DNA of 64,000 nt from an uncultured Verrucomicrobiae bacterium (GTDB lineage Bacteria > Verrucomicrobiota > Verrucomicrobiia > Chthoniobacterales > UBA10450): assembly GCA_963742845.1 (NCBI GenBank), contig CAVUNK010000008.1, positions 709,219 to 773,218 on the forward strand, given 5' to 3'. A model generated the notes under the pieces. It ran no database searches and was not told the DNA's origin. It was given only the letters and a program-made list of their open reading frames with translations. The position numbers were made by a program, and so were the translations under genes. This document shows, piece after piece, positions 44 to 62,483 of this stretch; position 1 is the first letter of the stretch; each line of letters begins with the position of its first letter.

Positions 44-568
44 ATGTTCTTCCATAGTTGGGGCGGACTCGGCCGAGTTCTGATCGTCGGGTTGTGCGCG
101 TATCTCGGACTCGTTCTCATCCTCCGCGTCTCCGGGAAACGCACTCTCGCGAAAATGAACGCGTTTGATTTCGTCGTCACCGTCGCGCTCGGCTCGATCC
201 TCGCCACGGTGCTGCTCTCGAAAGACGTTGCCCTCGCGGAAGGCCTGCTCGCGCTTGCGTGGTTGATCGGCCTGCAATGGCTGGTCGCGTGGCTCGCGGT
301 CCGCTCCGCGGCGTGGCGCGGCTTAATCAAGAGCGAGCCGCGTTTGCTCGCGCTCCGCGGTGAGTTAAACAACCGGGCGTTGCGCGAGGAACGCCTTACC
401 CACGAGGGCGTTTACGCCGCTCTGCGCTCTGCCGGTCATGCCTCACTCGCCGACGTCGAGGCGGTCGTGCTCGAGACCGATGGGAGGATCAGCGTGGTCG
501 GTTCAGGTGGCGGAAATGCCGACCCGGCGGCGCTCGCCAGTCTGCGCGATTATCCGGGCGACGCCTAA
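44..568 (+). CDS. DUF421 (YetF-like) membrane protein
   Basis: 174-aa ORF with N-terminal TM helices, a GKRTLAKMNAFDFVVTVALGS motif and a C-terminal LETDGRISVV tail, typical of DUF421. The TAA stop (566-568) lies inside a GCCTAACGA copy. Confidence 0.6.
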   Translation: MFFHSWGGLGRVLIVGLCAYLGLVLILRVSGKRTLAKMNAFDFVVTVALGSILATVLLSKDVALAEGLLALAWLIGLQWLVAWLAVRSAAWRGLIKSEPRLLALRGELNNRALREERLTHEGVYAALRSAGHASLADVEAVVLETDGRISVVGSGGGNADPAALASLRDYPGDA

Positions 569-656
569 CGAGTCGGGAAAATTCTTCCCCGCGGATACGC
601 GCTCAGAGCGCCGCGGATGCGAAACTTTGGGAAAGAAGCTCAACCAAAGGAGACCC

Positions 657-854
657 ATGGCGAAGAACACAGGCGACGGACATCGCGCCGGTTCGGTGAC
701 GAACCGCACACAAGTGAAGAACCCGCAGACCGGGGATTACGTGAAGCGAAATGAGAACCCGGAGAGCGGCAAAGCCGGGGAATTCATGGACGTGAAAAAG
801 GACGGCAAGCCCTTCAAGGGCGTCGCGGTGGAGCCGGATCACCGGCGGAAGTAA
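657..854 (+). CDS. small conserved hypothetical protein (65 aa, Lys/Gly-rich)
   Basis: ATG at 657 is preceded by AAGGAG 4-9 nt upstream. It is in frame with track ORF 438..854. The sequence MAKNTGDGHRAGSVTNRTQVKNPQTGDYVKR resembles small proteins I recall from many bacteria. Confidence 0.5.
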   Translation: MAKNTGDGHRAGSVTNRTQVKNPQTGDYVKRNENPESGKAGEFMDVKKDGKPFKGVAVEPDHRRK

Positions 855-2266
855 GCCGCGAGGCGGGCGGACTCGCTCCCCGCGCCACCGCCGGGCGCGG
901 GCCGGCTGGCCGCGCTCGGCCTTCCTCGTTTCGGCCGGCCTCCTCGGCACTCCCTCCGATGGCCTGCTCCAGCCGCTCCATCTTGGCTTTCAGCTCGGCG
1001 ATCTCGCTGCTCTGCTCTTCCACTTTTTGGTGTTCCTTCAGGAACTCATTGAGCAACATCGCGTTCACCGCTTCGTAGCGGACCGTATAGGGTTTGCCTG
1101 ACTTATCTTTCACTACTAACTCTGGATCGACCTTCGCTACTTCTTCCGCCACCAGGCCAAACTGCGGGATCTTTTCCGGGTCTAACTCTTCCTTGTAACG
1201 GAAACTGACCGGCTTGAGGGAGAGCAGTCACTTCGCTCGACTTCGCCATGGGCTTGATCGCTTCCTTGTAGCGTGCGGAAGAGTTCAATGTCCCGAGCCG
1301 ACCATTGCCATCGATCATCACCGCGACGCCACCCGCCACGGTCACTCCGCTGATCCCCGCGATGTAAGTCGCCCCCTGCTGTCCGTCTCTGCCCAGGCGC
1401 ATGGTGTTCGACTCACCAGCTACGCCAGAGTTACCGATATCGATATTCCGACTGCCCGTGAGATTGTAACCCGCGTTGTAGCCGATCGCGATGTTGTTGT
1501 TGCCCGTGACATTCTGGGAAAGGGCGCGATAGCCGTAGGCGGTGTTGTTGGTCCCCTCGGTATTGTCTTGCAGCGCTTCGCCACCGGCGGCGGTGTTGAA
1601 GCTGCCCGTGGTGTTATAAACCATCGCGCCCGCTCCGGCTGCCAGGTTCGTGCCGCCAGTGGTATTAAAAAGCAGGGCGGTGGAGCCGATTGCGGTGTTC
1701 CCGCTGCCATAATCCGGAGCGTTGAGGGTATAGCTCAGGGCGTAGTAACCAACCGCCGTGTTCGAATTTCCGGTCTTATTGTATTGGAGCGCCCGGTAAC
1801 CAAGGCCGGTGTTCCCTACACCCAGGGTATTCTCGTGCAGGCTTTCCTGGCCGATTGCGGTGTTGTAGTAGCCGCTAGTGTTCGCGTACATGGAGTTAGT
1901 GCCTACCGCCACATTGCTCATCCCGCTCCTGTTGGAATAGAGCGCTATGTCGCCAATCGCCACATTCAAAGCGCCGGTCGTATTGCTATAGAGGCAACGA
2001 TCGCCGACCGCGGTGTTACCGGAGCCGGAGGTATTATTGAGCATCGCCGTCGAACCGATCGCGACATTCAGGCCACCGGTGGTGTTCTTGTTGAGGGCTT
2101 GGAAACCAACCGCTGCATTGTCCGTGCCCGTCGTCAGGCTGAAGAGCGCGTCCTCTCCTTCGGCGGTGTTTTGGTTTGAGTAACCGCCATCCGGCGGCGG
2201 AGTAACCGCCAAAGTGGTGGCGGCGAAACTGGAGAGAGCGAGTAAGACCAACGAGAAGTTCTTCAT
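814..2266 (-). pseudogene. surface repeat protein: YadA-like head repeats plus C-terminal S74 intramolecular-chaperone (tail-fibre) domain; one frameshift near 1210-1225
   Basis: Signal peptide MKNFSLVLLALSSFAATTLA, then about 20 repeats of the pattern SGxxNTAxGxxAL. The C-terminus reads SSARYKEAIKPM..(shift)..KPVSFRYKEELDPEKIPQFGLVAEEVAKVDPELVVKDKSGKPYTVRYEAVNAMLLNEFLKEHQK, which is typical of the peptidase S74 chaperone domain. Confidence 0.6.
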
Positions 2267-4245: not shown

Positions 4246-6049
4246 TCGCGAGATATTCGCGGGTCGCGGCGAGGAAGGGCTCGGCGAAATCCTTCAGCTT
4301 TTGCTCGCCGACACCGGGAATCTTCCGGAACTCCGCCGCCGTGGTCGGATAACTCCGCGCCATCTCGCGCAGCGAGACGTCGGAGAAGATCACGTAGGCC
4401 GGGACGTTACGCTCGTCGGCGAGATTGCGCCTAACGAGTCTAAGATCGTCGAAGAGCGCTTCGTCGCACTCGATCTCGCCCGCGCGCTGGCGCCGTGAGC
4501 GGGTCGCGGTCTTCTCGGGCGGTTTCGTGAGCGTGATCGCGGTGCGCGCGCGGAGCGCTTCCCGGCCGGCTTCGGTCACCTGAAGCGTCGCGAATTTTCC
4601 GGGCGCCACTTCCACCAGTCCCATCCGGAGCAGTTCGCGCCCGACCGCCTGCCACGCGTCGCGTTTCAACTCCTGGCCGATGCCGTAGGTGGTGATTTCG
4701 TTATGCCCGCGCTGCCGGATCGCGTCCGTGTCCGCGCCGGTCAGCACTTCGACGATGTGATTCAGCCCGAAGGCGAACCCGCTTTTCTGCTGAATCCGGA
4801 GCACACAGGAGAGGAATTTCTGCGCCACCACCGTGCCGTCGAAAGTCTCGCGCGGCTCGAGGCAGTTATCGCAGCCGTTGCAGGGTTCGTTAGGCCGTTC
4901 CTCCGCGAAATAGCGGAGCAAAGTGGTGCGCCGGCATTCGCGCGTCTCCGCGTAGTGCACCATCTGGCGAAGCTGGGCGCGCGCGATCTGCGCTTCGCTC
5001 TCGCTTTTCTCGTCGATGAACCGCGTCTGCTTCACCACGTCGCCCGCGCTGAAAAGGAGCACGCAATCGCTCGGCAACCCATCGCGGCCGGCGCGGCCGG
5101 TTTCCTGATAGTAGCTCTCGATGTTCTTCGGCAGGTCATAGTGCACCACAAAACGGACGTTCGGTTTGTTGATCCCCATCCCGAACGCGATCGTCGCGCT
5201 GATCACGCGCACGTCGTCGCGCAGGAACTCCTCCTGGTTCCGCGCCCGTTCGTTAGGCTCGAGCCCGGCGTGGTAGGGCTTCGCCGGAATGCCGTCGGCG
5301 TTCAGCTTCGTCGCGACCGAGTCGGCGCTCTTGCGGCTCGCGCAATAGACGATCCCGCTGTCGTTCGGCCGTTCGCGCAGGAACGCGAGCAGCTGATCGT
5401 AGGGCGATGCTTTCGGGACCACGCGGTAGGTCAGGTTCGGCCGATCGAAGCTCGCGACGTAGATTTGCGGGTCGCGAAAATTTAGCTGCCTCACGATGTC
5501 GGCGCGGACCCGTTCGGTTGCGGTCGCGGTCAGCGCCATCAGCGGCACCTTCGGGAGAAGCTCGCGCAGCTTGTTCAGTTCGCGGTATTCCGGGCGGAAA
5601 TCGTGGCCCCATTCGCTGATGCAATGCGCCTCGTCGATCGCGATCTGCGCGACGTTCCACTCCTTCACCCGTTGGATGAATGAATCGAGCATGAGGCGCT
5701 CCGGCGCGAGATAGAGCAACCGGTATTCGCCATTATACAAGCCGCGCAGCCGCGCTTTCGCCTCCGGACCATCGAGCGATGAATTCAAAAACGTCGCCGC
5801 CACGCCGCTCGCCTGGAGCGCGTCGACCTGGTCTTTCATCAGCGAGATGAGCGGGGAGATCACGATCGTGAGGCCATCGCGGAGCAGGGCGGGCAGTTGG
5901 AAACAAAGCGACTTCCCGCCGCCGGTCGGCATGAGGGCGAAGACGTCGCGCCCCGCGAGCGCGTCGCGCACGATCTCCTCCTGGAGCGGCCGGAAAGCTG
6001 AGTAACCGAAATGTTTCTTGAGGGCGGGAAGCAATTGCACGCGGGACAT
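4217..6049 (-). CDS. recQ: ATP-dependent DNA helicase RecQ
   Basis: MSRVQLLPALKKHFGYSAFRPLQEEIV..MPTGGGKSLCFQLPAL, DEAH box (IDEAHCISEWGHDFRPEY), Zn-binding C..C..C..C, RQC and C-terminal HRDC (LFDDLRLVRRNLADERNVPAYVIFSD). The ATG at 6049 was chosen over the 158-codon upstream extension of the track ORF. Confidence 0.95.
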   Translation of the reverse strand: MSRVQLLPALKKHFGYSAFRPLQEEIVRDALAGRDVFALMPTGGGKSLCFQLPALLRDGLTIVISPLISLMKDQVDALQASGVAATFLNSSLDGPEAKARLRGLYNGEYRLLYLAPERLMLDSFIQRVKEWNVAQIAIDEAHCISEWGHDFRPEYRELNKLRELLPKVPLMALTATATERVRADIVRQLNFRDPQIYVASFDRPNLTYRVVPKASPYDQLLAFLRERPNDSGIVYCASRKSADSVATKLNADGIPAKPYHAGLEPNERARNQEEFLRDDVRVISATIAFGMGINKPNVRFVVHYDLPKNIESYYQETGRAGRDGLPSDCVLLFSAGDVVKQTRFIDEKSESEAQIARAQLRQMVHYAETRECRRTTLLRYFAEERPNEPCNGCDNCLEPRETFDGTVVAQKFLSCVLRIQQKSGFAFGLNHIVEVLTGADTDAIRQRGHNEITTYGIGQELKRDAWQAVGRELLRMGLVEVAPGKFATLQVTEAGREALRARTAITLTKPPEKTATRSRRQRAGEIECDEALFDDLRLVRRNLADERNVPAYVIFSDVSLREMARSYPTTAAEFRKIPGVGEQKLKDFAEPFLAATREYLASHPRQTFAT

Positions 6050-6094: not shown

Positions 6095-6982
6095 ATGAAA
6101 TCTCTCCTGCTCCTTCTTTTCGTCGCGCTCCTCGGCGCGGAAACCGCCGCCGCGAAACCGCTCAGTTGGTCGGAGCTCGGCGCGCTGCCGCTGCCCGCGG
6201 CCGGGAAAAAGATCGCGTATGGGAGCGACCCGTTGCAGTTCGGCGAGCTCCGTTTGCCGAAAGGCGCGGGGCCGTTCCCGGTCTTTGTGATCGTGCACGG
6301 CGGGTGCTGGCTGAACGCCTTCGATTATCACTACATGACGCGGCTCGCGGCCTGGCTGACGGAGCGCGGCTATGCGACCTGGACGATCGAATATCGGCGG
6401 GTCGGCGACGCGGGCGGCGGCTGGCCCGGGACGTTTCTCGATGTCGCGCACGCGACCGACGCGCTCCGGACGATCGCGAAAGAGCAGCCGCTCGATCTCC
6501 AGCGGGTTTACGCGGCGGGGCATTCCGCCGGCGGGCAGCTCGCGCTCTGGCTTGCGAGTCGCGCGCGCCTAACGAGTGCGAGCGAACTCTTCGTGGCCGA
6601 TCCCATGAGGATCCGCGGCGTGCTTGGGCTCGCGGCGATCGCCGATCTGAAGACGTATCGCGTCGGCCCGCCGGAGAGCTGCAACTCGGCAGTCGATCAG
6701 TTGCTCGGCGGCGATCCGGAAAAGTTCCCCGCACGTTATGCGGAAACTTCGCCGAGCCAGCGGCTGCCGTTAGGCGTGCCGCAGATTTTCATTCAGGGCG
6801 AGCTTGATCCGATTGTCCCGCCGGCCTCGGTGCGTGCCTATGCGGAAGCGGCGACGAAAGCGGGCGATCGCGCGGAGCTGTTGTTGTTGCCCGGGGCCGG
6901 ACATTTCGAAGCCTCCACTCCGCTGCCGCCGACGGCCGCGACCTTGGAGAAGGCGCTCCGTCTGCTTACCGCGACTCGTTAG
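6095..6982 (+). CDS. alpha/beta hydrolase (esterase/lipase-like), secreted
   Basis: Signal peptide MKSLLLLLFVALLGAETAAA, HGGCW oxyanion motif and GHSAGG nucleophile elbow. The TAG stop (6980-6982) is inside a motif copy. Confidence 0.8.
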   Translation: MKSLLLLLFVALLGAETAAAKPLSWSELGALPLPAAGKKIAYGSDPLQFGELRLPKGAGPFPVFVIVHGGCWLNAFDYHYMTRLAAWLTERGYATWTIEYRRVGDAGGGWPGTFLDVAHATDALRTIAKEQPLDLQRVYAAGHSAGGQLALWLASRARLTSASELFVADPMRIRGVLGLAAIADLKTYRVGPPESCNSAVDQLLGGDPEKFPARYAETSPSQRLPLGVPQIFIQGELDPIVPPASVRAYAEAATKAGDRAELLLLPGAGHFEASTPLPPTAATLEKALRLLTATR

Positions 6983-6991
6983 GCAAGGCCG

Positions 6992-8137: not shown

Positions 8138-9061
8138 GGCGCGAAATTATCCTGCGAGACTTCCATCAGGCTGATGAAGACGTCTTCCAGCCCGGAGGGA
8201 ATTTCCCGCCACTCGTATGGCGCGTGGCGAAAGGGCGCGATCGCCGCCTCCAGAGCCGCCGCGTCGTCGCTGCTGACGTGCAGGGCGTTGCCAAAGGCGA
8301 CCGCCTGCTGCACGCCGGGCTGGCCGCGGAGCTGCGCGGCAAGCTGCGGCAGGTCGGGGCCGCTGACCGACCATGTCGTTAGGCCAACCTGCGCGATGAC
8401 TTCCGCGACCGTGCCGTGCGGTGAGCAGATTGCCATACGAAATGTAAGCGAGCCGGTGGCAACGCTCGGCCTCATCCATGTAATGCGTCGTGATGAGGAA
8501 GGTCAGGCCCTGCGCCGAGAGTTGGTGGATCTGTTCCCAGAAATCGCGCCGCGCTTTCGGGTCGACGCCCGCGGTCGGCTCGTCGAGCAGGAGCAGCTTT
8601 GGCTTGTGAATCAGGCAGGCGGCGAGCGCGAGCCGTTGCTTCCAGCCGCCGGAAAGTTGTCCGGCGAGCTGCTTCTGCCGGCCCTCGAGACCGAGCTGCT
8701 CGATGCTCTCGCGCACGGTCGCGCGGCGGTTTTTCACCGCATACATGCGGGCGACGAAATCGAGATTCTCCGCAATGCTGAGGTCTTCCCAAAAACTGAA
8801 CCGCTGCGTCATGTAGCCGACCTCGCGCTTGATCGCTTCGCTCTCCGCGATGACGTCGTGGCCGAGGACGCGGCCGCTGCCGTCATCCGCGCGCAGCAGC
8901 CCGCAGAGCATGCGGATGAAGGTCGTTTTGCCGCTGCCGTTCGGACCGAGAAAGCCGTAGATCTGCCCGGTCTGCACTTGCAGATCGACGTGATCGACGA
9001 CCGTGCGCTCGCCGAAGCGCTTCGTCATTCCGCGCACGTCGATGGCTGGTTCGGCGCTCAT
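8134..9061 (-). pseudogene. ABC transporter ATP-binding protein, one frameshift near 8440-8470
   Basis: Walker A GPNGSGKTT, signature LSGGWKQRL and Walker B LLLLDEPTAGVD. The C-terminal part continues in ORF 8134..8475. The start overlaps the hlyD stop (ATGA). Confidence 0.85.
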
Positions 9062-9850
9062 GGTTTCGCGACAAATTCGACATCGACCGGCTGCCCGGGA
9101 TGCAACTTCGCCGCGGTCGCCGGATCGAAAACCGCCTCGACCAGGAAGACGAGTTTTTCCCGGCTCTCGCGGCTGTAGATGACCGGCGGCGTGTACTCGG
9201 CCTGCGGCGAAATGTAACTGACCTTGCCGACGAACGGCTCGCTCACGCCATCGACCGTGACCCGCGCCGTGTCGCCAGGATGAATCAGGCCGACGCGTTT
9301 TTCGGGCACGAACGCGCGCACTTTGATGTTCGCCGGCGGCAGCAGCGCGACGATCGGTTTGCCCGGCCGGGACCAATTCGCCCTGCCGATAAAGTGTGTC
9401 GTAAACCAGCGCGGCGGCCGGCGCGATCTGCGTCATCTGCGCGAGATTCCATGCCGCCTGCGCGAGCTGCTGGCGATTTTGGTCGCGAGTAGCGCGCGCG
9501 GTATCGAGGTCCTGCGCCGCGGAAGGGCCGGCGCGGAAAAGTTGTTCCTGCCGCTTGAATGATGCTTCCGACAAGACGAGCGCGGCCTGCGCCTGATCGT
9601 GCGCCGCCTGTTCCATCGTGGGATCGAGTGCGAAGAGCAGTTGCTTCTCCGCGACCTGCTGACCGCGCTGCACCGCGAGCCGGTTGAGAATGCCGCCTAA
9701 CGGCGCACTGACGTAAACAAACTCGCCTTCGACGTAACCCTGCACCCGGTCGTCCGGCGCCTTCTGACAACCCGCCAGGAGAAAAAGCGCGATCGTTAGG
9801 CAAAGACCCGAGCGCGCCGCCAGACGGCTGAAATTGAGGAATGTCTTCAC
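9058..9850 (-). pseudogene. HlyD-family membrane fusion/periplasmic adaptor protein, one frameshift near 9362
   Basis: Lipoprotein-like N-terminus (LLAGC), a coiled-coil region and a C-terminal beta-barrel (..IHPGDTARVTVDG..YISPQAEYTPPVIYS). The frame is restored by removing one C from the CCC run at 9362-9364. Confidence 0.8.
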
Positions 9851-12191: not shown

Positions 12192-12319
12192 CTCTTTCCC
12201 TCGCAGAAGATTATGCGGGCGGCAATCGCCCGTGGCGCTTTTTCGGCCGAGTCGTTAGGCGCGAGGCGGCTCTCGCAGTCGGCAAGCCGGCTTTGCTCCC
12301 CGCAGTTTGCTGCGGCGGC

Positions 12320-13031: not shown

Positions 13032-13046
13032 GACCCTGCCTAACGA

Positions 13047-46217: not shown

Positions 46218-46224
46218 ACGTTGC

Positions 46225-50648: not shown

Positions 50649-50728
50649 GAAATCTACAGGTGAGATGCGGCGAGGTGGCGGTCTGGATTCAGGAAAATTT
50701 GCCTAACGAGAAGTAATGGGCGCGTATC

Positions 50729-52783: not shown

Positions 52784-53287
52784 ATGAAACGTCAGACTTC
52801 TCTTTCGTGGGTGTTGCTCGCGGGTCTGGCCGCGAGCGCGTTATTGCTCTCCAGTTGCTCGACGGTGCGCTCGCGCATCGAGGAAAATCAGGCGGGATTC
52901 GCCCGTCTATCGCCTAACGACCAGACCCTGGTGACGCAGGGCAAAATCCGGGGCGGGATGTCGCAGGACGCGGTCTTCTTTGCCTGGGGCCGGGCGCAGC
53001 AAAAAGCCGTCGGCGAAGTGCATGGCGTGCCGACGGAAACCTGGGTGTATCTGATCGCGACCACGGTGCCGACTTACGGCTACGGCGGCGGTTTCTACGG
53101 TGGGTTTTCCGGGCCGGTGGGTTACTACGGGCGGCATGGCGGTCGGCGCTATTACGGGGCGATTTACGATCCGTTCTACGATCCCTTCTATTATCCGTTT
53201 TCGGAGACGATCACGCAGCCGGTGAAGACGGTCTCATTCCAGCGCGGGAAGGTGATCGCATTTCAATACCTCACGCCGGGGTATTGA
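52784..53287 (+). CDS. lipoprotein with a Gly/Tyr-rich segment
   Basis: Lipobox LLLSSC followed by ..YGYGGGFYGGFSGPVGYYGRHGGRRYYGAIYDPFYDPFYYPF.. Confidence 0.55.
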   Translation: MKRQTSLSWVLLAGLAASALLLSSCSTVRSRIEENQAGFARLSPNDQTLVTQGKIRGGMSQDAVFFAWGRAQQKAVGEVHGVPTETWVYLIATTVPTYGYGGGFYGGFSGPVGYYGRHGGRRYYGAIYDPFYDPFYYPFSETITQPVKTVSFQRGKVIAFQYLTPGY

Positions 53288-53309
53288 TCCGCTCGTTAGG
53301 CGGGCGACG

Positions 53310-54257
53310 TTACGTGCTCTGCACGAGACGCCGCACGAGGTCTTCCACGGTCACGATGCCGGTGAGCTTCTGTTTCGCATCCACCACCGCCGCGAGGGTG
53401 AGCCGCGCGGCGCGGAGCCGGCGGATGATCCGGTAGGCGGATTCGTTCTCGCTCGCGGTCACGAGGCGTCGGGTGTAATCGCGGAGCGTGCGGCGGGGTG
53501 GCGGGTCGAGCAGAATATCGAAGACGTTGACCAGTCCGAGCGCGCGACCTTTTGCCGATATCACCGGCACGCGATCGACCCCGGTGCGCGCGCTGAGTTG
53601 CAACAACTCCGGCACGGTCGTTTCCGGCCGTACGCTGGTGACTTTGCGCAGCGGCCGCATCACGTCGGCGACTTTTACAGTGCGAAAATCGACCACGTTA
53701 TGGATCATTGCGCGCTCCGCGGAAGTGAGTGAACCCTGCATCTCTCCTTCGACCGTGAGCTGTTTCAAATCCTCGCGCGCGACGAACATCCGCGGGACGG
53801 ATTCCTTCTGCGGCAGGCAGAGCCCGCCCACCCGCGCACCCAGTTCCAGGACCGGCCAGAAAAGCCGCGAAGTGAACTCGAGTAACCCGGCGAGCGCGGC
53901 GAGCGCACGATAGGGGAAGCGGCGGAAGAGCGACTTCGGCAGCACGCCGAGCATGAGCAAATAAATCGGCCCGGCGAGCAGCAGGGCAACCGGATAACCG
54001 ATCATGCCTAACGAACGCACGAGCCGTCGGGTGAGCAGGAGCAGACCCGCGATGTCGGCGAGATTGGTCACGAGCAGGATAGTCACGAGCAGCCGCTCCG
54101 GCCTTTTCAGGAGCCGATGCAGGAGCATCGCGGAGCGGTTCCGCAGCTTCACCTGATGGCGCAGCCGCACCTGATCGAGTGAGAGCAGCCCGGCCTCGAT
54201 GCCGGAAAAAACGAACGACACTACCCAGCAAAAAACGATTGTGATCCAGGCGAGCAT
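53310..54257 (-). CDS. CNNM-family (DUF21 plus CBS pair) membrane protein, no CorC_HlyC domain
   Basis: SGIEAGLLSLD.. DUF21 N-terminus plus two CBS motifs. The start overlaps the upstream stop. Confidence 0.8.
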   Translation of the reverse strand: MLAWITIVFCWVVSFVFSGIEAGLLSLDQVRLRHQVKLRNRSAMLLHRLLKRPERLLVTILLVTNLADIAGLLLLTRRLVRSLGMIGYPVALLLAGPIYLLMLGVLPKSLFRRFPYRALAALAGLLEFTSRLFWPVLELGARVGGLCLPQKESVPRMFVAREDLKQLTVEGEMQGSLTSAERAMIHNVVDFRTVKVADVMRPLRKVTSVRPETTVPELLQLSARTGVDRVPVISAKGRALGLVNVFDILLDPPPRRTLRDYTRRLVTASENESAYRIIRRLRAARLTLAAVVDAKQKLTGIVTVEDLVRRLVQST

Positions 54258-55544
54258 CAGGAAATGGTTTCGTCCTCTTCGGGGTTTTCCTCGGCCATCG
54301 CAGCGGTCCGCTCGAGCAGCGCTTCCTCGATTCGTTGGTGGCTCACCCGCCGCACGGTGAAAATGACCCGCGGTGTCTCCAGCTTCGCGCCGACGTTCGG
54401 CAGTTGGCCGAACCGGGTAAAAAGATAGCCGCCGATCGTATCGATCCCGTCCGCTTCCAGCGCGAAGCCGAGATGCTCGGTGAGGTCGTCGAGCCGCGCG
54501 TTCCCGCTCACGAGGAAACGCCCTTCCTCGAGCGGCTCGATGTAGAGATCTGCATCCCCTAGACGGCGCCGCGTCGCTGATGATCTCCTCGATAATATCC
54601 GCCAGGGTAATGATTCCCTCGGTCCCGCCGAATTCATCGACCACGATCGCGAGACCCTGCGGCTGCGAGATGAAACGCCGGAGCAGATCGATTGCCGCCA
54701 TCGTTTCCGGGACATACGAGGGCGCGATCAGCGTCTCGGTGTAAGGCCGCGACGGATCGAGCAGGAATTTTTTTACATCCACGATCCCGACCACATGATC
54801 GGGCGTTTCCGCGTAAACGGGCACCCGTCGATGCCGCCGCTCCTGAAGAAGCGTGATCGCTTCCTCGTTAGGCAAATCATCCGGGATCGCGAAGGTATCG
54901 ACCCGCGGCGTCATGCAATCCTTCGCCGTTTTGTCGCCGAGCTTGATGATTTCCTGGATCATCTCGCCCTCGGCTTCCTGGAGCGTGCCTTCCTCCTCGC
55001 CCATCTCGACCAGGGTTTCGAGTTCCTCGTCGCTCATCTGTCGGCGCACCTGCAGATGCGCGGGCGTCAGCCGATCGATCATCCCCGCGCTCACGTCCTC
55101 GAGCGCGCGACCGACGCGATCGAGGAACGGCATCAGCGCCTTGAGCGTGAACACGCCCATGGTCGAGAGTCGATACGGCTTCGAGATCGCGAGGAGCTTC
55201 GGGGTTAAATCGCAGATCAGCACGATGACGGCGAAAATGACCAGCGTCACGACCCACGACGGCATCCGCGCGTGCAGTGGCCCTTCCCAGATGAGCACGA
55301 GGCAGAGAATGACGAGCGGGACATTGATCAGGGTGACGCCGAGCAGGAGGACGTTGAGCACGCGGCGCGGGCTGTCGCGAAAGAGCCGGAGGAAATCGGT
55401 GAGCGACGGGTGCTGGTCGTGCAGCCGCTGGATTTGGTGGCTCTTGAGCGAGAAAAGCGCGGTCTCCAAACCAGAGAAAAGCGCCGAGCAGCAGATCAGA
55501 ACAACGATCGCGCCAATGAGAATACTGAGCCCGACTACCGTCAT
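54257..55544 (-). pseudogene. CNNM/CorC-family hemolysin-type protein (DUF21-CBS-CorC_HlyC), one frameshift near 54560
   Basis: SGLETALFSL.., CBS pair (..VPVYAETPDHVVGIVDVKK..), ..VVDEFGGTEGIITLADIIEEI.. The CorC_HlyC C-terminus is in ORF 54257..54715. Confidence 0.8.
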
Positions 55545-56158: not shown

Positions 56159-56752
56159 CAGCACCTCGTCGCAGAGCTCGATCGCTTCCGCGCGATCGTG
56201 GGTCACGTAGAGCATCGGCAGGTCGAACTCGTTAGGCAATGCCTTCAACTGCGCGAGGATCGCATCGCGCAACTTGCGATCGAGTCCGGTCAGCGGCTCG
56301 TCCAGCAATAGCAGCCGCGGCTCGGAGAGAAGCGCGCGCCCGATCGTGACCCGCTGCCGTTCGCCGCGCGAAAGCTGCCGCACATCGCGGTCGAGGAGCG
56401 GTGTGATCTCGAGAAATTCCGTCACATGCGCGAGCGAGAAGGCGGGGTCGCGCGATTCGTTAGGCCGGCCGTAAAGCAGGTTCCGCCGCACATCGAGATG
56501 CGGAAAGAGTGAGTCATCCTGCGGCACGTAACCGACCCGCCGCTGCCGCACCGGGAGCCCGCTAAAATCCGTGCCGTTGAACCGAATCAAACCCGCGGTC
56601 GGCTCGCGCAGACCCGCGATCGTTTCGAGGAGCGAAGTTTTCCCCGCGCCCGACGGTCCGAAGATCCCGGTCCGCTCCGCGATCAGCTCCACATCGGCTT
56701 CGAGCGCGAAACCGGAGAGCGGCAACCGCACTTTTCCTAACGACAACTTCAC
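56105..56752 (-). CDS. modC: molybdate-type ABC transporter ATP-binding protein (no TOBE domain)
   Basis: GPSGAGKTSLL, LSRGERQRVTIGRAL and LLLLDEPLTGLD; 215 aa only. The GTG start overlaps the modB stop. Confidence 0.75.
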   Translation of the reverse strand: MKLSLGKVRLPLSGFALEADVELIAERTGIFGPSGAGKTSLLETIAGLREPTAGLIRFNGTDFSGLPVRQRRVGYVPQDDSLFPHLDVRRNLLYGRPNESRDPAFSLAHVTEFLEITPLLDRDVRQLSRGERQRVTIGRALLSEPRLLLLDEPLTGLDRKLRDAILAQLKALPNEFDLPMLYVTHDRAEAIELCDEVLLIERGRIVGRGAPREVL

Positions 56753-57423
56753 CGCGCCGCCTCCCGTTTCCGCAGCAGCCATTCCGCGCTGAAGACCGCG
56801 ACAAACGCGATCACCACGCAGACCACAAGCAGTCGGTAAGCAGTCGCGTCGTGCCCGAGCTGGACCGCTTCGTAGATCCGCAGCGAGAGCGTCTGCGTCT
56901 CGCCGGGGATGTTGCCTGCGAGCAAAATCGTCGCCCCAAATTCTCCAACCGCGCGCGCGAAAGCGAGCAGCACGCCGCCGCAAATCGCGCGGGCCGCGAG
57001 CGGGAGCGAGATCGTCCAGAAAACGCGCCACTCCCCCGCGCCTAACGAGCGCGCCATCTGCTCGTAGCGCCGGTTCACTTCCTGAAACCCGACCCGCGCC
57101 GAGCGCACGAGCAGCGGGAACGACATCACCGCGGCCGCGATCACGACGGCTCGCCAGGTGAAGACAATGTCGAGATCGAACTGCCGATGGAGCCATCCGC
57201 CTAACGAGCCGTGGCGCCCGAGCAGCTTCAGCAAAATCAATCCGGTCGCCACCGGCGGCATCACCAGCGGCAGCGTGACCAGCGTTTCCACGACTGATTT
57301 TCCAAACCAGCGCGGCCGCGCCAGCAGCCAGGCGACGGCGAGCCCGAAAGGCAGAATCACCAACGTGCTCCCCGCGCACGCCGCGAGGGTAAAGCGCACC
57401 GCCTGCCATTCATCGGGTTGCAC
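56749..57423 (-). CDS. modB: molybdate ABC transporter permease
   Basis: ..LPLVMPPVATGLILL.., ..FARAVGEFGATILLAGNIPGETQTLSLRIY.. GTG start at 57423. Confidence 0.8.
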   Translation of the reverse strand: MQPDEWQAVRFTLAACAGSTLVILPFGLAVAWLLARPRWFGKSVVETLVTLPLVMPPVATGLILLKLLGRHGSLGGWLHRQFDLDIVFTWRAVVIAAAVMSFPLLVRSARVGFQEVNRRYEQMARSLGAGEWRVFWTISLPLAARAICGGVLLAFARAVGEFGATILLAGNIPGETQTLSLRIYEAVQLGHDATAYRLLVVCVVIAFVAVFSAEWLLRKREAAR

Positions 57424-57687: not shown

Positions 57688-59868
<2,181 letters not shown>

Positions 59869-59905
59869 GCGCGACCGTTTGACGGACTGGGGCCCAAACC
59901 GCGCG

Positions 59906-60062: not shown

Positions 60063-60805
60063 GGATCGCTGCTGTTCCCGGCGCCGTTGCCGCTGACTGC
60101 CGCCGGACTCTTCGCCGAGACTGGTCGCCGTCGGCGCAGGCGCATCCAGTTGTTCCAGGTCTTCCGCACGCTGTCTTTCGGCGTGAGATATTCCTGGTTC
60201 AGCTCGTTGCTCTTCAAAATCCGCGCAGGTACACCGCCTAACGAGAAGTCCTCGGTATTCAAGATGGTGTAAGCCGTCCCGATCGCGGCGTGATGATGCG
60301 CGTCGCTCGCCGCGGTCATCGGCAGTCCGCGCACCTGCGCATATTTGAAGGCGTAACGATTATACCGGCGCAAAGTGGTCGCGGCGTTGAAGACCTCGAG
60401 CGCGTCGATCGGCAGATTCTCGAGGGTGGAAAAACGAATCCCGGCCCGGAACAAATCGTAAGGATGCGGCGGAATCGCGAGCCCGCCGCGCTCATGGATG
60501 AGGTCGCAGACTTCGCGCGCGGGCGTGCCTTTCAAAAACGGGAGCGACGCGCCGATGCAGAGCAGGTGACCTTCCGCGGTGGTCACCTCGACCCCGGGGA
60601 TGATGAGGAATCCGTCAACCGGCTGGCCATCCTCGCGGATCAGCCCTTTCTCGCGGCAGTAATCGACGCCGTCATTCGTGTTGTGATCGGTCATCGCAAA
60701 ACCGTGGAGTCCCTTGGCGCGCGCGGCTTCGATGTTCTGCTCGGGGCTGGAAACGCCGTCGCCGGAAAAGAACGAATGCGTGTGCAGGTCGATCTTGAAG
60801 GGCAT
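60053..60805 (-). CDS. PHP-domain metal-dependent phosphoesterase
   Basis: IDLHTHSFFSGDG, ..FAMTDHN.. and ..ASDAHH.. motifs. The 3' end runs into MITE copy 2. Confidence 0.8.
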   Translation of the reverse strand: MPFKIDLHTHSFFSGDGVSSPEQNIEAARAKGLHGFAMTDHNTNDGVDYCREKGLIREDGQPVDGFLIIPGVEVTTAEGHLLCIGASLPFLKGTPAREVCDLIHERGGLAIPPHPYDLFRAGIRFSTLENLPIDALEVFNAATTLRRYNRYAFKYAQVRGLPMTAASDAHHHAAIGTAYTILNTEDFSLGGVPARILKSNELNQEYLTPKDSVRKTWNNWMRLRRRRPVSAKSPAAVSGNGAGNSSDPSS

Positions 60806-60834
60806 CGGCGGGAGGGTAGTTTGCGCGCCTCGAA

Positions 60835-61438
60835 ATGGAAAGCGTGGGTTTCAAGGAATGGGCGCTGGTTTGCGCGGCGCTCGGCGACGGCACGCAGAGT
60901 GTGCTCGTGCGCAAAGGCGGAATCGCGGAAGGCCGCGATGGCTTCCAGTTTCGGTATCGCGAGTTCTTTTTATTCCCGACTTTTTTCCATGAGCAGGCGG
61001 GCAAGACGCGGCTGGTGGATGCGGTCGTGCCAGAGCCGTTGCCTAACGAGATTGAGATTCGGTTCTGGGGGCGGATCGAGGAGACACGCGTGGTGACGGA
61101 TTGGGAAACAGCGCGTGCGCTCGCGCCGCTGCACATCCTTCAGGAGAGCGTGGTGCGGGAGCGGTTCGAGTACCGATGACACGCCCGGAGTGCAGGTGGC
61201 GTTTGTGCGCGTTTTCCGGCTGGCGAAGCCGTGGCGGTTTCCGGATTTGCCGCGTTATGGCGGCTGCCGTTCGTGGGTGGATTTGCCGGCGGTGCCGGCG
61301 GAGGCGGAGTTGAAGCACGTGTTGGATGATGCAGTGCAGGAGCAGCAGCGGGCTTTGTTTCGCCGCTTGATGGACGCGTCAGACAACAGATCAAACCCGG
61401 CACCTAGCAGCAAAATCGCGCCTAACGAACAGGCGTAA
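60835..61438 (+). pseudogene. DUF1802 family protein, one frameshift near 61170
   Basis: FKEWALVCAALGDGTQSVLVRKGGIAEGRDGF..FFLFPTFFH.. continues as ..VQVAFVRVFRLAKPW.. in ORF 61115..61438. Confidence 0.6.
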
Positions 61439-62483
61439 GGTGCGCGAGCGCTTCGATCTCAGCGGTCTGGGGGAACATGTCGAACGGGGTGACGCTCTCG
61501 AGCGAGTAGCCCGCGCCAAGATCCGCGAGGTCGCGCGCGAGTGTGGGCGGATTGCAGGAGACGTAGAGCAGTGTCGCCGCCGGATACGCGCGCAGGATTT
61601 CGCGCACGTCGGCACCGAGCCCGGTGGCCGGCGGATCCACCAGCACGGTCGTGAGGTTGAGATCGGCGCGGCTTAGCTCGGACTCGAGCCGCTGCGCGAG
61701 ATCGCCGGCGAAATAAGATTCGTTAGGCGCGGCGTCTGCTTCCGCGGCGGCGATCGCGTGGATGTCCCAGTCGAGGCCGACGGTGCGGACGAATTTACCG
61801 AGGAGACGCTTGGCGAAAAACCCGGCGCCGCAGTAGCCGTCGATGAGGAGCGACTGCTCCGGCGGCACGAGCGCGCCGATCGCCGCGGCGAGCGCTTCCG
61901 CGACGGCGTCGTTCGTCTGCGAGAACACGCGCGGGCCGCTCCGCGCGCGCAAAGTGTAATGCCCATCGCGCGGACGTCCGGCGCGGAGCGCGGCGAGTTC
62001 TTCGTTCACTTCGCCGGCGGAGATCGGGCACTGCTCGATGTCGATTAACCGATGAACGTCGCGCCGGAAAAATCCGATGACGCCCTCCTCGACGTGGACG
62101 GTAATCCGGTTGCGATAGCCATATTCGAGGGGCGAGGGGACGATCGGCTGCAAAGGTGGCTCGGAGAATTTGCCGATCCGCCGCAAAGCCGAGCGGACCT
62201 GCTCGGTTTTCCAATGCAGCTGGCTCGCGTAGCTCATGTGCTGATACGCGCACCCGCCGCAGCGACCGAAATAGGGACACGGCGGCTCGACCCGCTCCGG
62301 CGAAGCCTCTTCCAGCCTAACGACCTCGGCTTCGGCGAACGATTTTTTCTCCCGGACGATCCCGGCGGTGACCCGCTCGTCCGCGATCGTGAACGGCACG
62401 AAGACCGCCTTGCCCTCGGCGCGGCCGACGCCTTTGCCGCCGAACGCAATGTCCTCGATCACCAGTTCCACTTCGCGCTGCAT
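61422..62483 (-). CDS. RumA/RlmD-family RNA (uracil-5-)-methyltransferase (TRAM plus Fe-S plus SAM MTase)
   Basis: TRAM (IEDIAFGGKGVGR..), Cys cluster CPYFGRCGGCAYQH, SAM motif LIDGYCGAGFF and catalytic ..YVSCNP.. The ATG at 62483 was chosen. The TAG stop is inside a motif copy. Confidence 0.85.
   Translation of the reverse strand: MQREVELVIEDIAFGGKGVGRAEGKAVFVPFTIADERVTAGIVREKKSFAEAEVVRLEEASPERVEPPCPYFGRCGGCAYQHMSYASQLHWKTEQVRSALRRIGKFSEPPLQPIVPSPLEYGYRNRITVHVEEGVIGFFRRDVHRLIDIEQCPISAGEVNEELAALRAGRPRDGHYTLRARSGPRVFSQTNDAVAEALAAAIGALVPPEQSLLIDGYCGAGFFAKRLLGKFVRTVGLDWDIHAIAAAEADAAPNESYFAGDLAQRLESELSRADLNLTTVLVDPPATGLGADVREILRAYPAATLLYVSCNPPTLARDLADLGAGYSLESVTPFDMFPQTAEIEALAHLTPVR

What the first reader, a model, noticed from the sequence alone, without database searches (positions are those of the whole stretch)
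564..62334. Hyper-abundant 9-mer GCCTAACGA: candidate DNA-uptake-sequence-like genome signal
By manual scan, the 8-mer core CCTAACGA/TCGTTAGG occurs at least 62 times, 37 on the plus strand and 25 on the minus strand, which is about one per kb. The 5' base is almost always G, giving GCCTAACGA. For a 60-65% G+C sequence, an independent-base model predicts only about 1-2 copies on both strands in 64 kb. Another 10-12 one-mismatch variants exist, for example at 6777, 9696, 19093, 21448, 22336, 34679, 47127, 51677 and 60347. The copies are read in every frame. In sense orientation they give P-N-E/D, L-T-x or a TAA stop. In antisense orientation they give S-L-G, V-V-R/L-V-R or R-TAG. Six copies are intergenic. 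Conservation is therefore at the DNA level, not at the peptide level. This density, the use of both orientations and the intragenic location (recQ alone carries three) match what is known for Neisseriaceae DUS and Pasteurellaceae USS. I know of no described uptake signal of this sequence. An alternative is a Chi/KOPS-like polar motif, since 36 copies are sense and 20 antisense with respect to genes.
Basis: partly seen in the sequence, partly recalled or inferred. Interest (0 to 1): 0.85.

Follow-up and report, generated by a model that had tools for sequence, protein, structure and literature searches.

The report
Hyper-abundant GCCTAACGA genome-signature word
The 9-base word GCCTAACGA occurs about once per 1,000 bases in this soil verrucomicrobial chromosome, over 100 times more than chance and against the cell's own codon preferences; this looks like the 'DNA uptake sequences' some pathogens use to recognise their own DNA, in a phylum where no such signal has been described.

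Summary
CCTAACGA occurs 62 times (37+/25-) against 0.9 expected, and GCCTAACGA 55 times against 0.36. No other word in the window comes close.

The window is housekeeping chromosome of an uncultured Chthoniobacterales bacterium (Verrucomicrobiota).

The copies are dispersed singletons with unconserved flanks and no hairpins. They occur in all tolerated reading frames on both strands.

The pressure acts on the DNA. 17 of 19 Pro-Asn-Asp/Glu tripeptides are spelled CCTAACGA, although CCT is only 7% of proline codons. That tripeptide is 5x over-represented, but not in outgroups. Twelve copies lie within 10 nt of gene ends, and five supply the stop codon.

The motif is restricted to one clade (88% bootstrap) at 0.1-1.0 copies/kb. 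Sister lineages carry none. It is equally dense at other loci of other genomes and in one phage contig.

This is the anatomy of Neisseriaceae DUS and Pasteurellaceae USS, but the sequence is unrelated, the phylum is different and there are no terminator pairs. Uptake itself, competence genes and replication polarity could not be tested.

A strictly polar KOPS-type signal, a peptide motif and a mobile element are rejected. HIP1-like, Chi-like or repair-driven origins remain open.

Best reading: an uptake-signal analogue, confidence about 0.45.

The parts
564..571 (+). motif copy (5' G); its TAA is the stop codon of ORF 44-568
4430..4437 (+). motif copy in recQ (-), antisense, Val-Arg frame
4887..4894 (-). 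motif copy in recQ, sense, Pro-Asn-Glu frame
5250..5257 (-). motif copy in recQ, sense, Pro-Asn-Glu frame
6568..6575 (+). motif copy, sense Leu-Thr frame of + ORF 6011-6982
6976..6983 (-). motif copy about 10 nt from the 3' end of ABC-2 permease gene 6966-7751 (-)
8376..8383 (-). motif copy in ABC ATPase gene 8147-9850 (-), sense Leu-Thr (low-confidence frame)
9793..9800 (-). motif copy in ABC ATPase gene, sense Leu-Thr
10211..10218 (+). motif copy in tetR-family gene 9847-10503 (-), antisense Ser-Leu-Gly
10964..10971 (-). motif copy in GNAT gene 10606-11307 (-), sense Pro-Asn-Glu
12252..12259 (-). motif copy, intergenic
13039..13046 (+). motif copy, intergenic, abutting the thrS stop codon (13047-13049)
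13594..13601 (-). motif copy in thrS, sense Pro-Asn-Glu. Shared by the window, L001, L003, L004, L006 and L024 (clade member L002 keeps GCCGAACGA); outgroups have GCCGAACGA or GCCCAACGA
14414..14421 (-). motif copy in thrS, sense Leu-Thr. L001 and L006 are one base off; outgroups read AGCTCACCC
17687..17694 (+). motif copy shared with L001 (low-confidence frame)
20394..20401 (+). motif copy in GH75-like gene 20049-21452, sense Pro-Asn-Glu; absent from the L001 and L006 orthologues
22142..22149 (-). motif copy in metallophosphoesterase gene 21514-22341 (+), antisense Val-Arg
22597..22604 (-). motif copy, frame uncertain
23161..23168 (+). motif copy (5' C), intergenic
24720..24727 (+). motif copy in acetate kinase gene, sense Pro-Asn-Glu
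26302..26309 (+). motif copy at the 5' end of the ccoN-like gene (frame uncertain)
27417..27424 (+). motif copy in ccoN-like gene, sense Leu-Thr
27899..27906 (-). motif copy in ORF 27757-28380 (+), antisense Val-Arg
28933..28940 (+). motif copy (5' C) in P-type ATPase gene, sense Leu-Thr
30134..30141 (+). motif copy in P-type ATPase gene, sense Pro-Asn-Glu
31915..31922 (+). motif copy in phosphoketolase (xfp) C-terminal ORF, sense Pro-Asn-Asp
32975..32982 (+). motif copy (5' C), intergenic, 17 nt after the xfp stop
34096..34103 (+). motif copy (5' C) in N-ATPase beta gene, sense Leu-Thr
35228..35235 (+). motif copy 9 nt from a gene end in the N-ATPase operon
35528..35535 (+). motif copy 7 nt from the end of ORF 35216-35542
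36599..36606 (+). motif copy in small ATPase-operon ORF 36552-36833, sense Leu-Thr
39785..39792 (+). motif copy (5' C) in the fragmented P-type ATPase gene, sense Leu-Thr
41195..41202 (-). motif copy in ATP synthase gamma gene (+), antisense Ser-Leu-Gly
41389..41396 (+). motif copy (5' C) in ATP synthase gamma gene, sense Leu-Thr
42889..42896 (+). motif copy; its TAA is the stop codon of the sufC-like ABC ATPase gene (ends 42893)
46224..46231 (+). motif copy; its complement TAG is the stop codon of gene 46225-46998 (-)
46702..46709 (+). motif copy in gene 46225-46998 (-), antisense Val-Arg
48937..48944 (-). motif copy in PG-binding/GH75 gene (+), antisense Ser-Leu-Gly
49434..49441 (-). motif copy, sense Leu-Thr in minus-strand ORF 49406-49981
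49505..49512 (+). motif copy, antisense Ser-Leu-Gly in the same ORF; 71 nt from its neighbour, the smallest spacing in the window
49866..49873 (-). motif copy, sense Leu-Thr in the same ORF
50702..50709 (+). motif copy, intergenic
51410..51417 (-). motif copy in ORF 51225-51677 (-), sense Leu-Thr
52429..52436 (-). motif copy in moaA-like gene (-), sense Leu-Thr
52913..52920 (+). motif copy in ORF ending at 53287 (+), sense Pro-Asn-Asp
53293..53300 (-). motif copy, intergenic between convergent genes, 6 nt from a gene end
54007..54014 (+). motif copy in CNNM/CBS gene (-), antisense Ser-Leu-Gly
54865..54872 (-). motif copy in CNNM/CBS gene, sense Pro-Asn-Glu
56229..56236 (-). motif copy in ABC ATPase ORF 56105-57409 (-), sense Pro-Asn-Glu
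56457..56464 (-). motif copy in the same ORF, sense Pro-Asn-Glu
56736..56743 (+). motif copy (5' T), 6 nt from a called gene end; frame uncertain
57041..57048 (+). motif copy, antisense Ser-Leu-Gly
57200..57207 (+). motif copy, antisense Ser-Leu-Gly
58267..58274 (+). motif copy in DUF255/thioredoxin-like gene 57688-59868, sense Pro-Asn-Glu
58720..58727 (+). motif copy in DUF255 gene, sense Pro-Asn-Glu
58969..58976 (-). motif copy in DUF255 gene, antisense Ser-Leu-Gly
59862..59869 (-). motif copy; its complement TAG is the stop codon of the DUF255 gene
60237..60244 (+). motif copy in ORF 60053-60805 (-), antisense Ser-Leu-Gly
61042..61049 (+). motif copy in ORF 60835-61179 (+), sense Pro-Asn-Glu
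61421..61428 (+). motif copy; its complement TAG is the stop codon of the TRAM/methyltransferase gene (-)
61720..61727 (-). motif copy in TRAM/methyltransferase gene, sense Pro-Asn-Glu
62316..62323 (+). motif copy in TRAM/methyltransferase gene, antisense Val-Arg

Best explanation
GCCTAACGA is a lineage-specific genome signature of one clade of uncultured soil Chthoniobacterales (Verrucomicrobiota). There is weak preference for pyrimidines at -4 to -2 and against T at +1. The motif is kept at about one copy per kb by a force that acts on the DNA sequence itself.

The most likely mechanism is the one known for DNA uptake sequences. A surface DNA receptor of the competence machinery, probably a type IV filament component, would bind double-stranded DNA carrying the word in preference to other DNA. 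Motif-bearing alleles released by relatives would therefore be imported and recombined more often than motif-less alleles. Any point mutation that creates or perfects a copy would spread (molecular drive). Purifying selection on proteins would then confine copies to tolerated places: synonymous spellings, a few tolerant tripeptides, stop codons, gene ends and spacers.

Shown here: the hyper-abundance, the DNA-level drive, its cost in rare codons and altered peptides, the restriction to one clade, and presence at other loci and in a phage contig.

Inferred, not shown: that the driver is biased uptake followed by transformation.
For: (1) Abundance is in the USS/DUS range: 55-62 copies in 64 kb against 0.4-0.9 expected, O/E 85-180. 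For comparison, H. influenzae has 1,471 and N. meningitidis 1,892 uptake sequences per genome (PMC2817400).

(2) The motif is non-palindromic, occurs in both orientations in every locus, and occurs as dispersed singletons. Spacing CV is 0.83, minimum gap 71 nt, maximum 3.9 kb. Flanks are unconserved and there is no hairpin context.

(3) Exact copies vastly exceed one-off copies: about 150x enrichment against about 2.7x.

(4) The drive overrides codon bias. 17 of 59 CCT, 7 of 37 CTA, 8 of 42 TTA and 5 of 26 AGG codons lie inside the motif. 17 of 19 Pro-Asn-Asp/Glu tripeptides are spelled CCTAACGA, and 8 of 12 Ser-Leu-Gly are spelled TCGTTAGG.

(5) The proteome is altered. Pro-Asn-Asp/Glu observed/expected is 14/2.6 in the window and 15/2.6 in high-density relatives, against 8/4.8 in outgroups, where none is motif-encoded. 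Uptake sequences likewise about double their tripeptides (PMC2817400).

(6) Orthologous sites show conversion. At one thrS site, motif genomes have CCT where outgroups have CCG or CCC. A second site shows 1-off intermediates in relatives and 4-6 differences in outgroups. The changes include transversions.

(7) Motif genomes are monophyletic on ThrRS (bootstrap 0.88), at densities of 0.1-1.0/kb. Sister lineages carry zero copies.

(8) Density is the same at unrelated loci of other genomes: L199 (hut, tig, clpX region) 1.0/kb and L235 about 2/kb (both loci were found by requiring three nearby copies), L006 1.0/kb.

(9) There is a sense-strand excess and enrichment at gene termini: 12 copies within 10 nt of a 3' end against 1.7 expected. 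Both biases are reported for uptake sequences (PMC2346458).

(10) A phage contig (L083) carries the motif at host density. Pasteurellaceae prophages are reported to accumulate USS as they co-evolve with their hosts (PMC7371117).
Against: No uptake or transformation data exist, and natural transformation has not been reported for Verrucomicrobiota in the searched literature.

No competence, pilin or secretin gene was seen in the window or in about 250 kb of clade DNA. This is only a small fraction of a genome, so it is uninformative rather than negative.

The sequence is unrelated to any DUS or USS, so a ComP-type receptor cannot be assumed.

Unlike DUS, there are no inverted pairs or terminator hairpins.

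Local strand imbalances (L006 6:16; window 19:6 in + genes against 13:16 in - genes) hint at a weak strand effect. Orientation-blind uptake does not predict that.

Host-level density in phage structural genes is also what an intracellular drive or a self-marker would produce.
Confidence: 0.45

Rival explanations
1. A HIP1-like signal: a hyper-abundant word kept by selection for an intracellular role that has nothing to do with DNA uptake. Examples would be binding of a nucleoid-associated or chromosome-organising protein, or an orphan-methyltransferase-linked function.
For: HIP1 (GCGATCGC) in cyanobacteria reaches similar over-representation (15-300x). It is conserved between genomes and still has no proven function (PMC5861425, PMC4390886). 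The density, clade restriction and site sharing between relatives seen here fit this equally well.
Against: The word is not palindromic, so it is not a classical type II methylation or HIP-type site. Thousands of weakly selected sites are hard to maintain without a drive. A phage contig has no obvious need for host chromosome-organising sites, yet carries the motif at host density. No periodic or domain-like spacing is visible in 64 kb.
Confidence: 0.2
2. A Chi-like or 'self' marker: the word is read by a RecBCD/AddAB-type or defence nuclease travelling on DNA. It switches the enzyme from degradation to repair, so host DNA, and phages that mimic it, are protected.
For: The motif is dense in phage packaging and head genes, which selection for nuclease evasion would explain. 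Strand use per locus is uneven, with a maximum-likelihood local skew of about 0.65. L006 shows 12 of 17 frame-assigned copies on one strand regardless of gene strand.
Against: To my knowledge, known Chi sites are 5-8 nt and only a few-fold over-represented. Here the word is 9 nt with O/E of 85-180. A 0.75 skew model fits no better than 0.5. Most of the imbalance follows gene orientation: the sense effect is z about 2.4 and the strand effect z about 1.7, computed from the counts. Three of the loci were found through same-strand copies, which inflates apparent skew.
Confidence: 0.12
3. A neutral intracellular drive: a sequence-specific mismatch or very-short-patch-type repair or gene-conversion bias turns near-cognate sites into the word, with no function for the word itself.
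For: It would act on any DNA resident in the cell, including prophages. It would explain saturation of synonymous opportunities and density differences between relatives that gained or lost the enzyme.
Against: To my knowledge, known VSP repair corrects only T:G mismatches, which are transitions, and gives mild enrichment. Here motif-creating changes include G>T, C>A and C>G transversions and multi-base conversions, and enrichment exceeds 100x. No such 9-bp-specific repair system is known.
Confidence: 0.12
4. An ordinary cause: a peptide or codon-usage by-product, the core of a dispersed mobile element (REP/MITE), or an assembly artefact.
For: None beyond the fact that most copies lie in genes.
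Against: The word is read in four coding frames plus two stop frames, on both strands, and uses the rarest codons. Flanks carry at most 0.2 bit per position and are not complementary. The same word is dense in independent assemblies made with different assemblers and in different samples.
Confidence: 0.01

Closest known systems
Pasteurellaceae uptake signal sequence (USS; 9-bp core AAGTGCGGT or ACAAGCGGT)
   Same: It is also a 9-bp non-palindromic core at about 1 per kb, mostly inside genes and in both orientations. Exact copies greatly exceed one-off copies. One orientation is favoured in reading frames and copies are biased to gene termini (PMC2346458). Encoded tripeptides are inflated (PMC2817400). 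Copies accumulate in co-evolved prophages (PMC7371117).
   Different: The sequence is unrelated. The host is a Verrucomicrobiota clade, not Gammaproteobacteria. There are no AT-rich flanking segments. All usable frames need rare codons, whereas USS frames correlate with preferred codons. Tripeptide inflation is larger (about 5x against about 2x). Uptake bias is unproven.
Neisseriaceae DNA uptake sequence (DUS; GCCGTCTGAA and dialects; receptor ComP)
   Same: Density is about 1 per 0.4-1.1 kb. The signal is lineage-specific, with density and sequence varying across a family. It acts as a self-DNA tag.
   Different: Only GCC...GA(A) coincides; the CTG core essential for DUS (my knowledge) is absent. 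There are no inverted-repeat or terminator pairs. About three quarters of copies are in ORFs, against 35% in N. meningitidis (PMC2817400). No dialects were detected in sister lineages, which carry nothing.
Cyanobacterial HIP1 (GCGATCGC)
   Same: Over-representation is of comparable size. HIP1 also lies within genes, is conserved between related genomes, and has an unknown driver (PMC5861425).
   Different: HIP1 is an 8-bp palindrome embedding methyltransferase sites (PMC4390886). This word is asymmetric, and no methyltransferase link is known.
Chi sites and FtsK-orienting KOPS
   Same: They are also short asymmetric chromosomal words. A weak local strand imbalance exists here too.
   Different: To my knowledge, Chi and KOPS are G-rich, only a few-fold enriched, and 75% to over 85% co-oriented with replication. 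Here O/E is 85-180, orientation in the window is 60:40, and it largely follows gene strand.

Membership tests
DNA uptake sequences (DUS/USS class) | Short (9-12 nt) asymmetric word present at roughly one copy per kb, far above any compositional expectation | tested here: met
   55-62 copies in 64 kb, O/E 85-180. Density is 0.9-1.0/kb in L006 and L199 and about 2/kb in L235. Whole-genome counts were not available.
DNA uptake sequences (DUS/USS class) | Dispersed single copies on both strands, in coding and non-coding DNA, without conserved flanks | tested here: met
   37+/25-; spacing CV 0.83; flank information at most 0.2 bit.
DNA uptake sequences (DUS/USS class) | Accumulation by point substitution at the DNA level, with a footprint on codon choice and on encoded tripeptides | tested here: met
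   Rare-codon capture and 17/19 Pro-Asn-Asp/Glu spelled with the motif. Orthologue conversions. Outgroup control.
DNA uptake sequences (DUS/USS class) | Shared by a phylogenetically coherent group of species and absent outside it | tested here: met
   Seven ThrRS loci form one clade with bootstrap 0.88. There are 0 copies in L005, L007-L023, L025-L052 and L054-L069, including the sister loci L029 and L005; among all 73 other loci only L053 and L070 carry one copy each.
DNA uptake sequences (DUS/USS class) | Competent cells take up motif-bearing DNA preferentially | not testable with these tools
   This needs an uptake or transformation competition experiment. All clade members are uncultured MAGs.
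DNA uptake sequences (DUS/USS class) | The genome encodes a DNA-uptake machine (type IV filament, secretin, ComEA, ComEC, DprA) and a sequence-specific receptor | tested here: inconclusive
   None was found in the window or in about 250 kb of clade DNA. This is only a small fraction of a genome, and whole genomes could not be scanned.
Neisseriaceae DUS dialects (ComP-recognised) | Sequence derivable from GCCGTCTGAA with the conserved CTG core | tested here: not met
   GCCTAACGA shares only GCC and GA and has no CTG (direct comparison).
Neisseriaceae DUS dialects (ComP-recognised) | Frequent inverted pairs forming terminator hairpins | tested here: not met
   The closest opposite-strand pair is 71 nt apart. 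There is no flank complementarity and no excess folding energy.
Chi (RecBCD/AddAB hotspot) | Strong co-orientation with replication (about 75% in E. coli) independent of gene strand | tested here: inconclusive
   Window 60:40. Maximum-likelihood local skew is about 0.65, and a 0.75 model fits no better than 0.5. The replication direction of the window is unknown because GC skew is flat.
KOPS / strictly polar architecture signals | More than 85% of copies on one strand per replichore | tested here: not met
   The 0.9 skew model is about 29 log-likelihood units worse than 0.5. Both orientations are interleaved along the window.
HIP-type highly iterated palindromes | Palindromic word embedding a methyltransferase site | tested here: not met
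   GCCTAACGA differs from its reverse complement TCGTTAGGC. Methylation could not be tested.
REP/MITE-type dispersed repeats | Conserved sequence or secondary structure extending beyond the core | tested here: not met
   Logo of 146 copies; fold test.

The most novel reading that the evidence does not exclude
This is the first DNA uptake signal outside Proteobacteria. A clade of abundant but uncultured soil Verrucomicrobiota (Chthoniobacterales) would tag its own DNA with GCCTAACGA and use it for self-preferential natural transformation, through a receptor unrelated to ComP. That implies frequent sex-like exchange in a soil lineage for which no genetic system exists. A still stranger reading is not excluded: the word could be a 'self' password read by an intracellular nuclease or defence system, which phages of the clade have learned to copy.
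Probability: 0.45. Interest if true: 0.88.

Novelty: new variant of a known kind. Interest (0 to 1): 0.77.

Why it matters
Sequence-specific DNA uptake is known from only two proteobacterial families, both host-associated. It underlies much of the thinking on why bacteria transform.

A third, independent case in free-living soil Verrucomicrobiota would show that self-tagging of DNA evolves repeatedly. It would give a computational marker for recognising DNA of this clade, and its phages, in metagenomes. It would also suggest a practical route to genetics in an uncultured, ecologically important group: put the word on the donor DNA.

If the driver turns out not to be uptake, the motif becomes a second HIP1-type puzzle, but with an asymmetric word and an unusually clear evolutionary footprint. 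The long-standing question 'drive or selection?' then becomes directly testable, because closely related genomes with and without the signal can be compared.

Tried and rejected
Locating the source genome. Three window ORFs were looked up by exact protein match and none is on record. The window also shows apparent frameshifts, so gene starts and products may differ from database calls.

Literature. Searches for the 9-mer in both orientations returned only primers and unrelated sequences. Searches for uptake signals or competence in Verrucomicrobia, Chthoniobacter or Udaeobacter found nothing relevant.

Metagenome scan. A scan for three motif copies spaced 90-120 nt apart returned 105 loci. About 100 of them are unrelated tandem arrays (period 118, 123 or 108 nt; GC 0.40-0.47). 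Only L199 and L235 belong to the clade.

Dialects. Sister genomes were checked for an alternative hyper-abundant word and none was found.

Competence and pilus genes. Regex screens for prepilin leaders, T2SS/T4P ATPase Walker boxes, and secretin, DprA and ComEC signatures in clade loci found only ClpX and one prepilin-like ORF, in the outgroup locus L007.

Replication direction. I tried to infer it from GC skew, which is flat, and from skewed oligomers. Only CGGGAGC at 14:0 stood out, and it is confined to minus-gene regions and not interpretable.

Hairpin or terminator context: rejected.

RNA explanation. Rfam finds only one tRNA in the window, and a third of the copies are antisense.

Bootstrap. 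The first attempt timed out and was redone with a custom neighbour-joining script.

Full report
OBSERVATION

CCTAACGA occurs 62 times, 37 on the plus strand and 25 on the minus strand, from 564 to 62323. Dinucleotide-preserving shuffles give 0.92 (maximum 4). A G precedes 55 of the 62 copies. GCCTAACGA occurs 55 times against 0.36 expected. Markov models of order 0-3 give observed/expected ratios of 85-180. Higher orders are meaningless because their sub-words come mainly from the motif itself.

It is the most frequent 8-mer and 9-mer of a 62% G+C window, ahead of all GC-rich low-complexity words. The best unrelated 8-mer reaches only O/E 5.9.

There are 34 for the 8-mer, which is about chance (about 31 expected). 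However, 27 of them keep the 5' G. One-off variants of the 9-mer number 33 against about 12 expected. Exact copies are therefore enriched about 150-fold and one-off copies about 2.7-fold.

ANATOMY

A pooled logo of 146 copies from the window and related loci shows a 9-bp core (G in 88%, then the invariant CCTAACGA used for selection). There is only a weak preference for pyrimidines at -4 to -2 and against T at +1. Beyond that nothing is conserved.

Flanks are not complementary, and motif-centred 69-mers fold no better than random windows. The word is therefore not the core of a REP/MITE element or of a terminator.

Copies are singletons. The minimum spacing is 71 nt, the maximum 3.9 kb, and the coefficient of variation is 0.83 against 0.98 for random placement (P = 0.07).

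The largest gaps fall on rpoN, atpA and sufBD, which I expect to be among the most conserved genes.

WHERE THE WINDOW COMES FROM

The genes are ordinary chromosomal housekeeping genes: recQ, ABC transporters, a tetR regulator, thrS, rpoN, mntH, aldolase, acetate kinase, a ccoN-like oxidase, P-type ATPases, phosphoketolase, an alternate F1F0 (N-type) ATPase operon, sufBCD and moaA, together with genes for a CNNM/CBS protein, a DUF255 thioredoxin-like protein and a TRAM methyltransferase.

ThrRS is 80-85% identical to MAGs labelled Verrucomicrobiae or Chthoniobacterales. The exact genome was not found.

THE PRESSURE ACTS ON DNA

Local coding-frame assignment gives these counts:
- sense Pro-Asn-Asp/Glu: 19
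- sense Leu-Thr: 18
- sense TAA: 3
- antisense Ser-Leu-Gly: 14
- antisense Val-Arg: 5
- antisense TAG: 3

Every usable frame requires a rare codon, and the motif captures a large share of those codons. It holds 17 of 59 CCT (CCT is 7% of Pro codons), 7 of 37 CTA, 8 of 42 TTA and 5 of 26 AGG.

17 of 19 Pro-Asn-Asp/Glu tripeptides are spelled CCTAACGA, and 8 of 12 Ser-Leu-Gly are spelled TCGTTAGG. Synonymous opportunities in these frames are nearly saturated.

The drive has also changed proteins. Pro-Asn-Asp/Glu occurs 14 times against 2.6 expected from amino-acid composition in the window. It occurs 15 times against 2.6 in three other high-density loci, and 27 of these 29 are motif-encoded. In outgroup Chthoniobacterales it occurs 8 times against 4.8 expected, and none is motif-encoded.

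Findlay and Redfield found the same kind of effect, about a doubling, for the tripeptides of true uptake sequences (PMC2817400).

ORTHOLOGOUS SITES

In thrS, the site at 13594 reads GCCTAACGA in six of the seven motif-clade genomes (L002 reads GCCGAACGA). In outgroups it reads GCCGAACGA, GCCCAACGA, GGCGAACGA or CCCCAACGA. This is a synonymous Pro CCG/CCC to CCT change against codon bias.

The site at 14414 is the motif in the window and one base off in L001 and L006 (GCCTCACGA, GCCTGACGA). In the remaining clade members and in outgroups it differs at four to six positions (for example AGCTCACCC), mostly still coding Leu-Thr.

The changes include transversions. This argues against a deamination or very-short-patch type of repair bias.

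GENE ENDS

Twelve copies lie within 10 nt of a gene's 3' end, against 1.7 expected (P < 0.0005). Five supply the stop codon itself: TAA in the sense orientation or TAG in the antisense orientation. The genes include the sufC-like ABC ATPase gene, the DUF255 gene and the TRAM methyltransferase gene.

Uptake sequences in Pasteurellaceae are likewise biased to gene termini, with one orientation favoured in frame (PMC2346458).

PHYLOGENETIC DISTRIBUTION

Of 80 ThrRS-anchored loci from species-representative genomes, only L001-L004, L006 and L024 carry more than a single copy (L053 and L070 have one each). Densities range from 0.09 to 0.87 per kb.

On a ThrRS neighbour-joining tree these six loci plus the window form one clade with bootstrap 0.88. 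The nearest sisters, L029 and L005 (the latter labelled Chthoniobacter sp.), have none. No alternative hyper-abundant word ('dialect') appears in the motif-free relatives.

A metagenome scan added two independent contigs. L199 is part of a 663-kb contig carrying hutHUI, trigger factor and clpX. It has 14 core copies in 13.6 kb. L235 has 14 in 7.2 kb. The enrichment is therefore not confined to this contig or this locus.

A PHAGE CARRIES IT TOO

A scan of viral contigs found L083 (IMGVR_UViG_3300037261_000237, 63% G+C). It has 13 copies in 13.9 kb against 0.07 expected. It encodes a large terminase, portal, minor head protein, holin and repressor. By coordinates, five of its 13 copies supply stop codons.

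A few other viral contigs show weaker enrichment.

This is compatible with the uptake model, because USS accumulation in Pasteurellaceae prophages is used as a measure of co-evolution with the host (PMC7371117). It is equally what an intracellular drive or a nuclease-evading self-marker would produce.

ORIENTATION

Both orientations are interleaved in every locus.

In the window, copies in plus-strand genes are 19:6 (+:-) and copies in minus-strand genes are 13:16. There is thus a clear sense bias and at most a marginal strand effect (z about 2.4 and about 1.7; my calculation from the counts).

L006 shows 12 of 17 frame-assigned copies on one strand irrespective of gene strand.

Across loci the maximum-likelihood local skew is about 0.65. 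A skew of 0.9 is excluded, and 0.75 fits no better than 0.5. Three of the loci were ascertained through same-strand copies, which inflates skew.

GC skew in the window is flat and no interpretable polar oligomer was found. Polarity relative to replication therefore remains untested.

INTERPRETATION

The combination of features is the signature of the DUS/USS class. Those features are a 9-bp asymmetric word at about 1 per kb, both strands, a large excess of exact over one-off copies, saturation of synonymous sites, inflated tripeptides, preference for tolerant positions and gene ends, restriction to one clade with variable density, and accumulation in a co-evolved phage.

The standard explanation for that class is molecular drive through biased uptake followed by recombination. 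I take this as the best explanation, with confidence 0.45.

It is an analogue, not a family member. The sequence is unrelated to any DUS or USS, the CTG core of DUS is missing, there are no terminator pairs, and the host belongs to another phylum. According to a 2025 survey and my searches, no uptake signal is described outside Neisseriaceae and Pasteurellaceae (bioRxiv 10.1101/2025.10.24.684340).

The functional core of the claim could not be tested. That core is preferential uptake, the presence of a competence machine and a receptor. The window and about 250 kb of clade DNA contain no recognisable competence or pilin genes, but this sample is too small to mean anything.

RIVALS

- A HIP1-like selected intracellular signal (0.20). 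HIP1 shows that comparable hyper-abundance can exist without known uptake (PMC5861425). But this word is not palindromic, and a phage has no obvious need for host chromosome-organising sites.
- A Chi-like or self marker (0.12). The phage copies and uneven strand use favour it. The 9-nt length, the O/E of 85-180 and the weak skew argue against it.
- A neutral repair or gene-conversion bias (0.12). It would explain the phage copies and the saturation. It would, however, require an unknown 9-bp-specific system able to fix transversions.
- Peptide, codon, mobile-element or assembly artefacts are rejected (0.01).

VERDICT

The feature is real, striking and, as far as I can find, undescribed. It is a new variant of the uptake-signal kind of genomic word, and its mechanism is still to be proven.

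Noticed in passing
L083 (IMGVR_UViG_3300037261_000237), 1-13890: A phage contig (large terminase 5810-7288, portal 7474-9042, holin, repressor) carries GCCTAACGA at host density: 13 copies in 13.9 kb. Five copies provide stop codons, for example the portal TAA at 9040-9042.
   Followed up: partly
window 30567-32958: Phosphoketolase (xfp) is split into two overlapping ORFs, 30567-31919 and 31591-32958. The apparent frameshift lies near 31600. It is either a pseudogene or an indel error in the assembly.
   Followed up: partly
window 39166-41075: A P-type ATPase gene next to the alternate F1F0 ATPase operon is broken across three reading frames. E1-E2 and hydrolase domains match only in part.
   Followed up: no
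window 57479-57622 and about 59900-60062: Two copies of a palindromic element of about 145 bp flank the DUF255 gene. The arms are 59 nt and 90% complementary, and contain GTCATCCTGAGCGGAGC...AGTCGAAGGATCCCGT. It looks like a REP/MITE-type hairpin repeat unrelated to the 9-mer.
   Followed up: partly
window, 14 sites from 3199 to 61156: CGGGAGC occurs 14 times on the plus strand and never on the minus strand, and only in regions where genes are on the minus strand. This is unexplained and may be a small-sample effect.
   Followed up: partly
window 23160-41396: All six CCCTAACGA variants (5' C instead of G) are on the plus strand. Five of them sit in the Leu-Thr frame, so the 5' base is set by the preceding codon.
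   Followed up: yes
L147-L251 (metagenome contigs, e.g. L164, L192, L191): About 100 unrelated contigs of low G+C (0.35-0.47) carry tandem arrays with periods of 118, 123 or 108 nt. The repeat unit happens to contain GCCTAACGA. Many come from the same sample series (Ga0123352-Ga0123357).
   Followed up: no
window 4217-6523 and 6011-6982: The recQ ORF has a 167-residue N-terminal extension before the RecQ match. It overlaps a plus-strand ORF that scores as coding, so the true recQ start is probably near 6020.
   Followed up: no
window 41952-42022 (-): A single tRNA gene lies between the ATPase gamma gene and the suf operon. It is the only Rfam match in the window.
   Followed up: no
L001-L004, L024 against L006, L199, L235 and the window: Motif density differs ten-fold between members of the same clade (0.1 to 1.0 per kb). 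This suggests gain, strengthening or loss of the driver within the clade. Closely related genomes can therefore be compared to find the responsible gene.
   Followed up: partly
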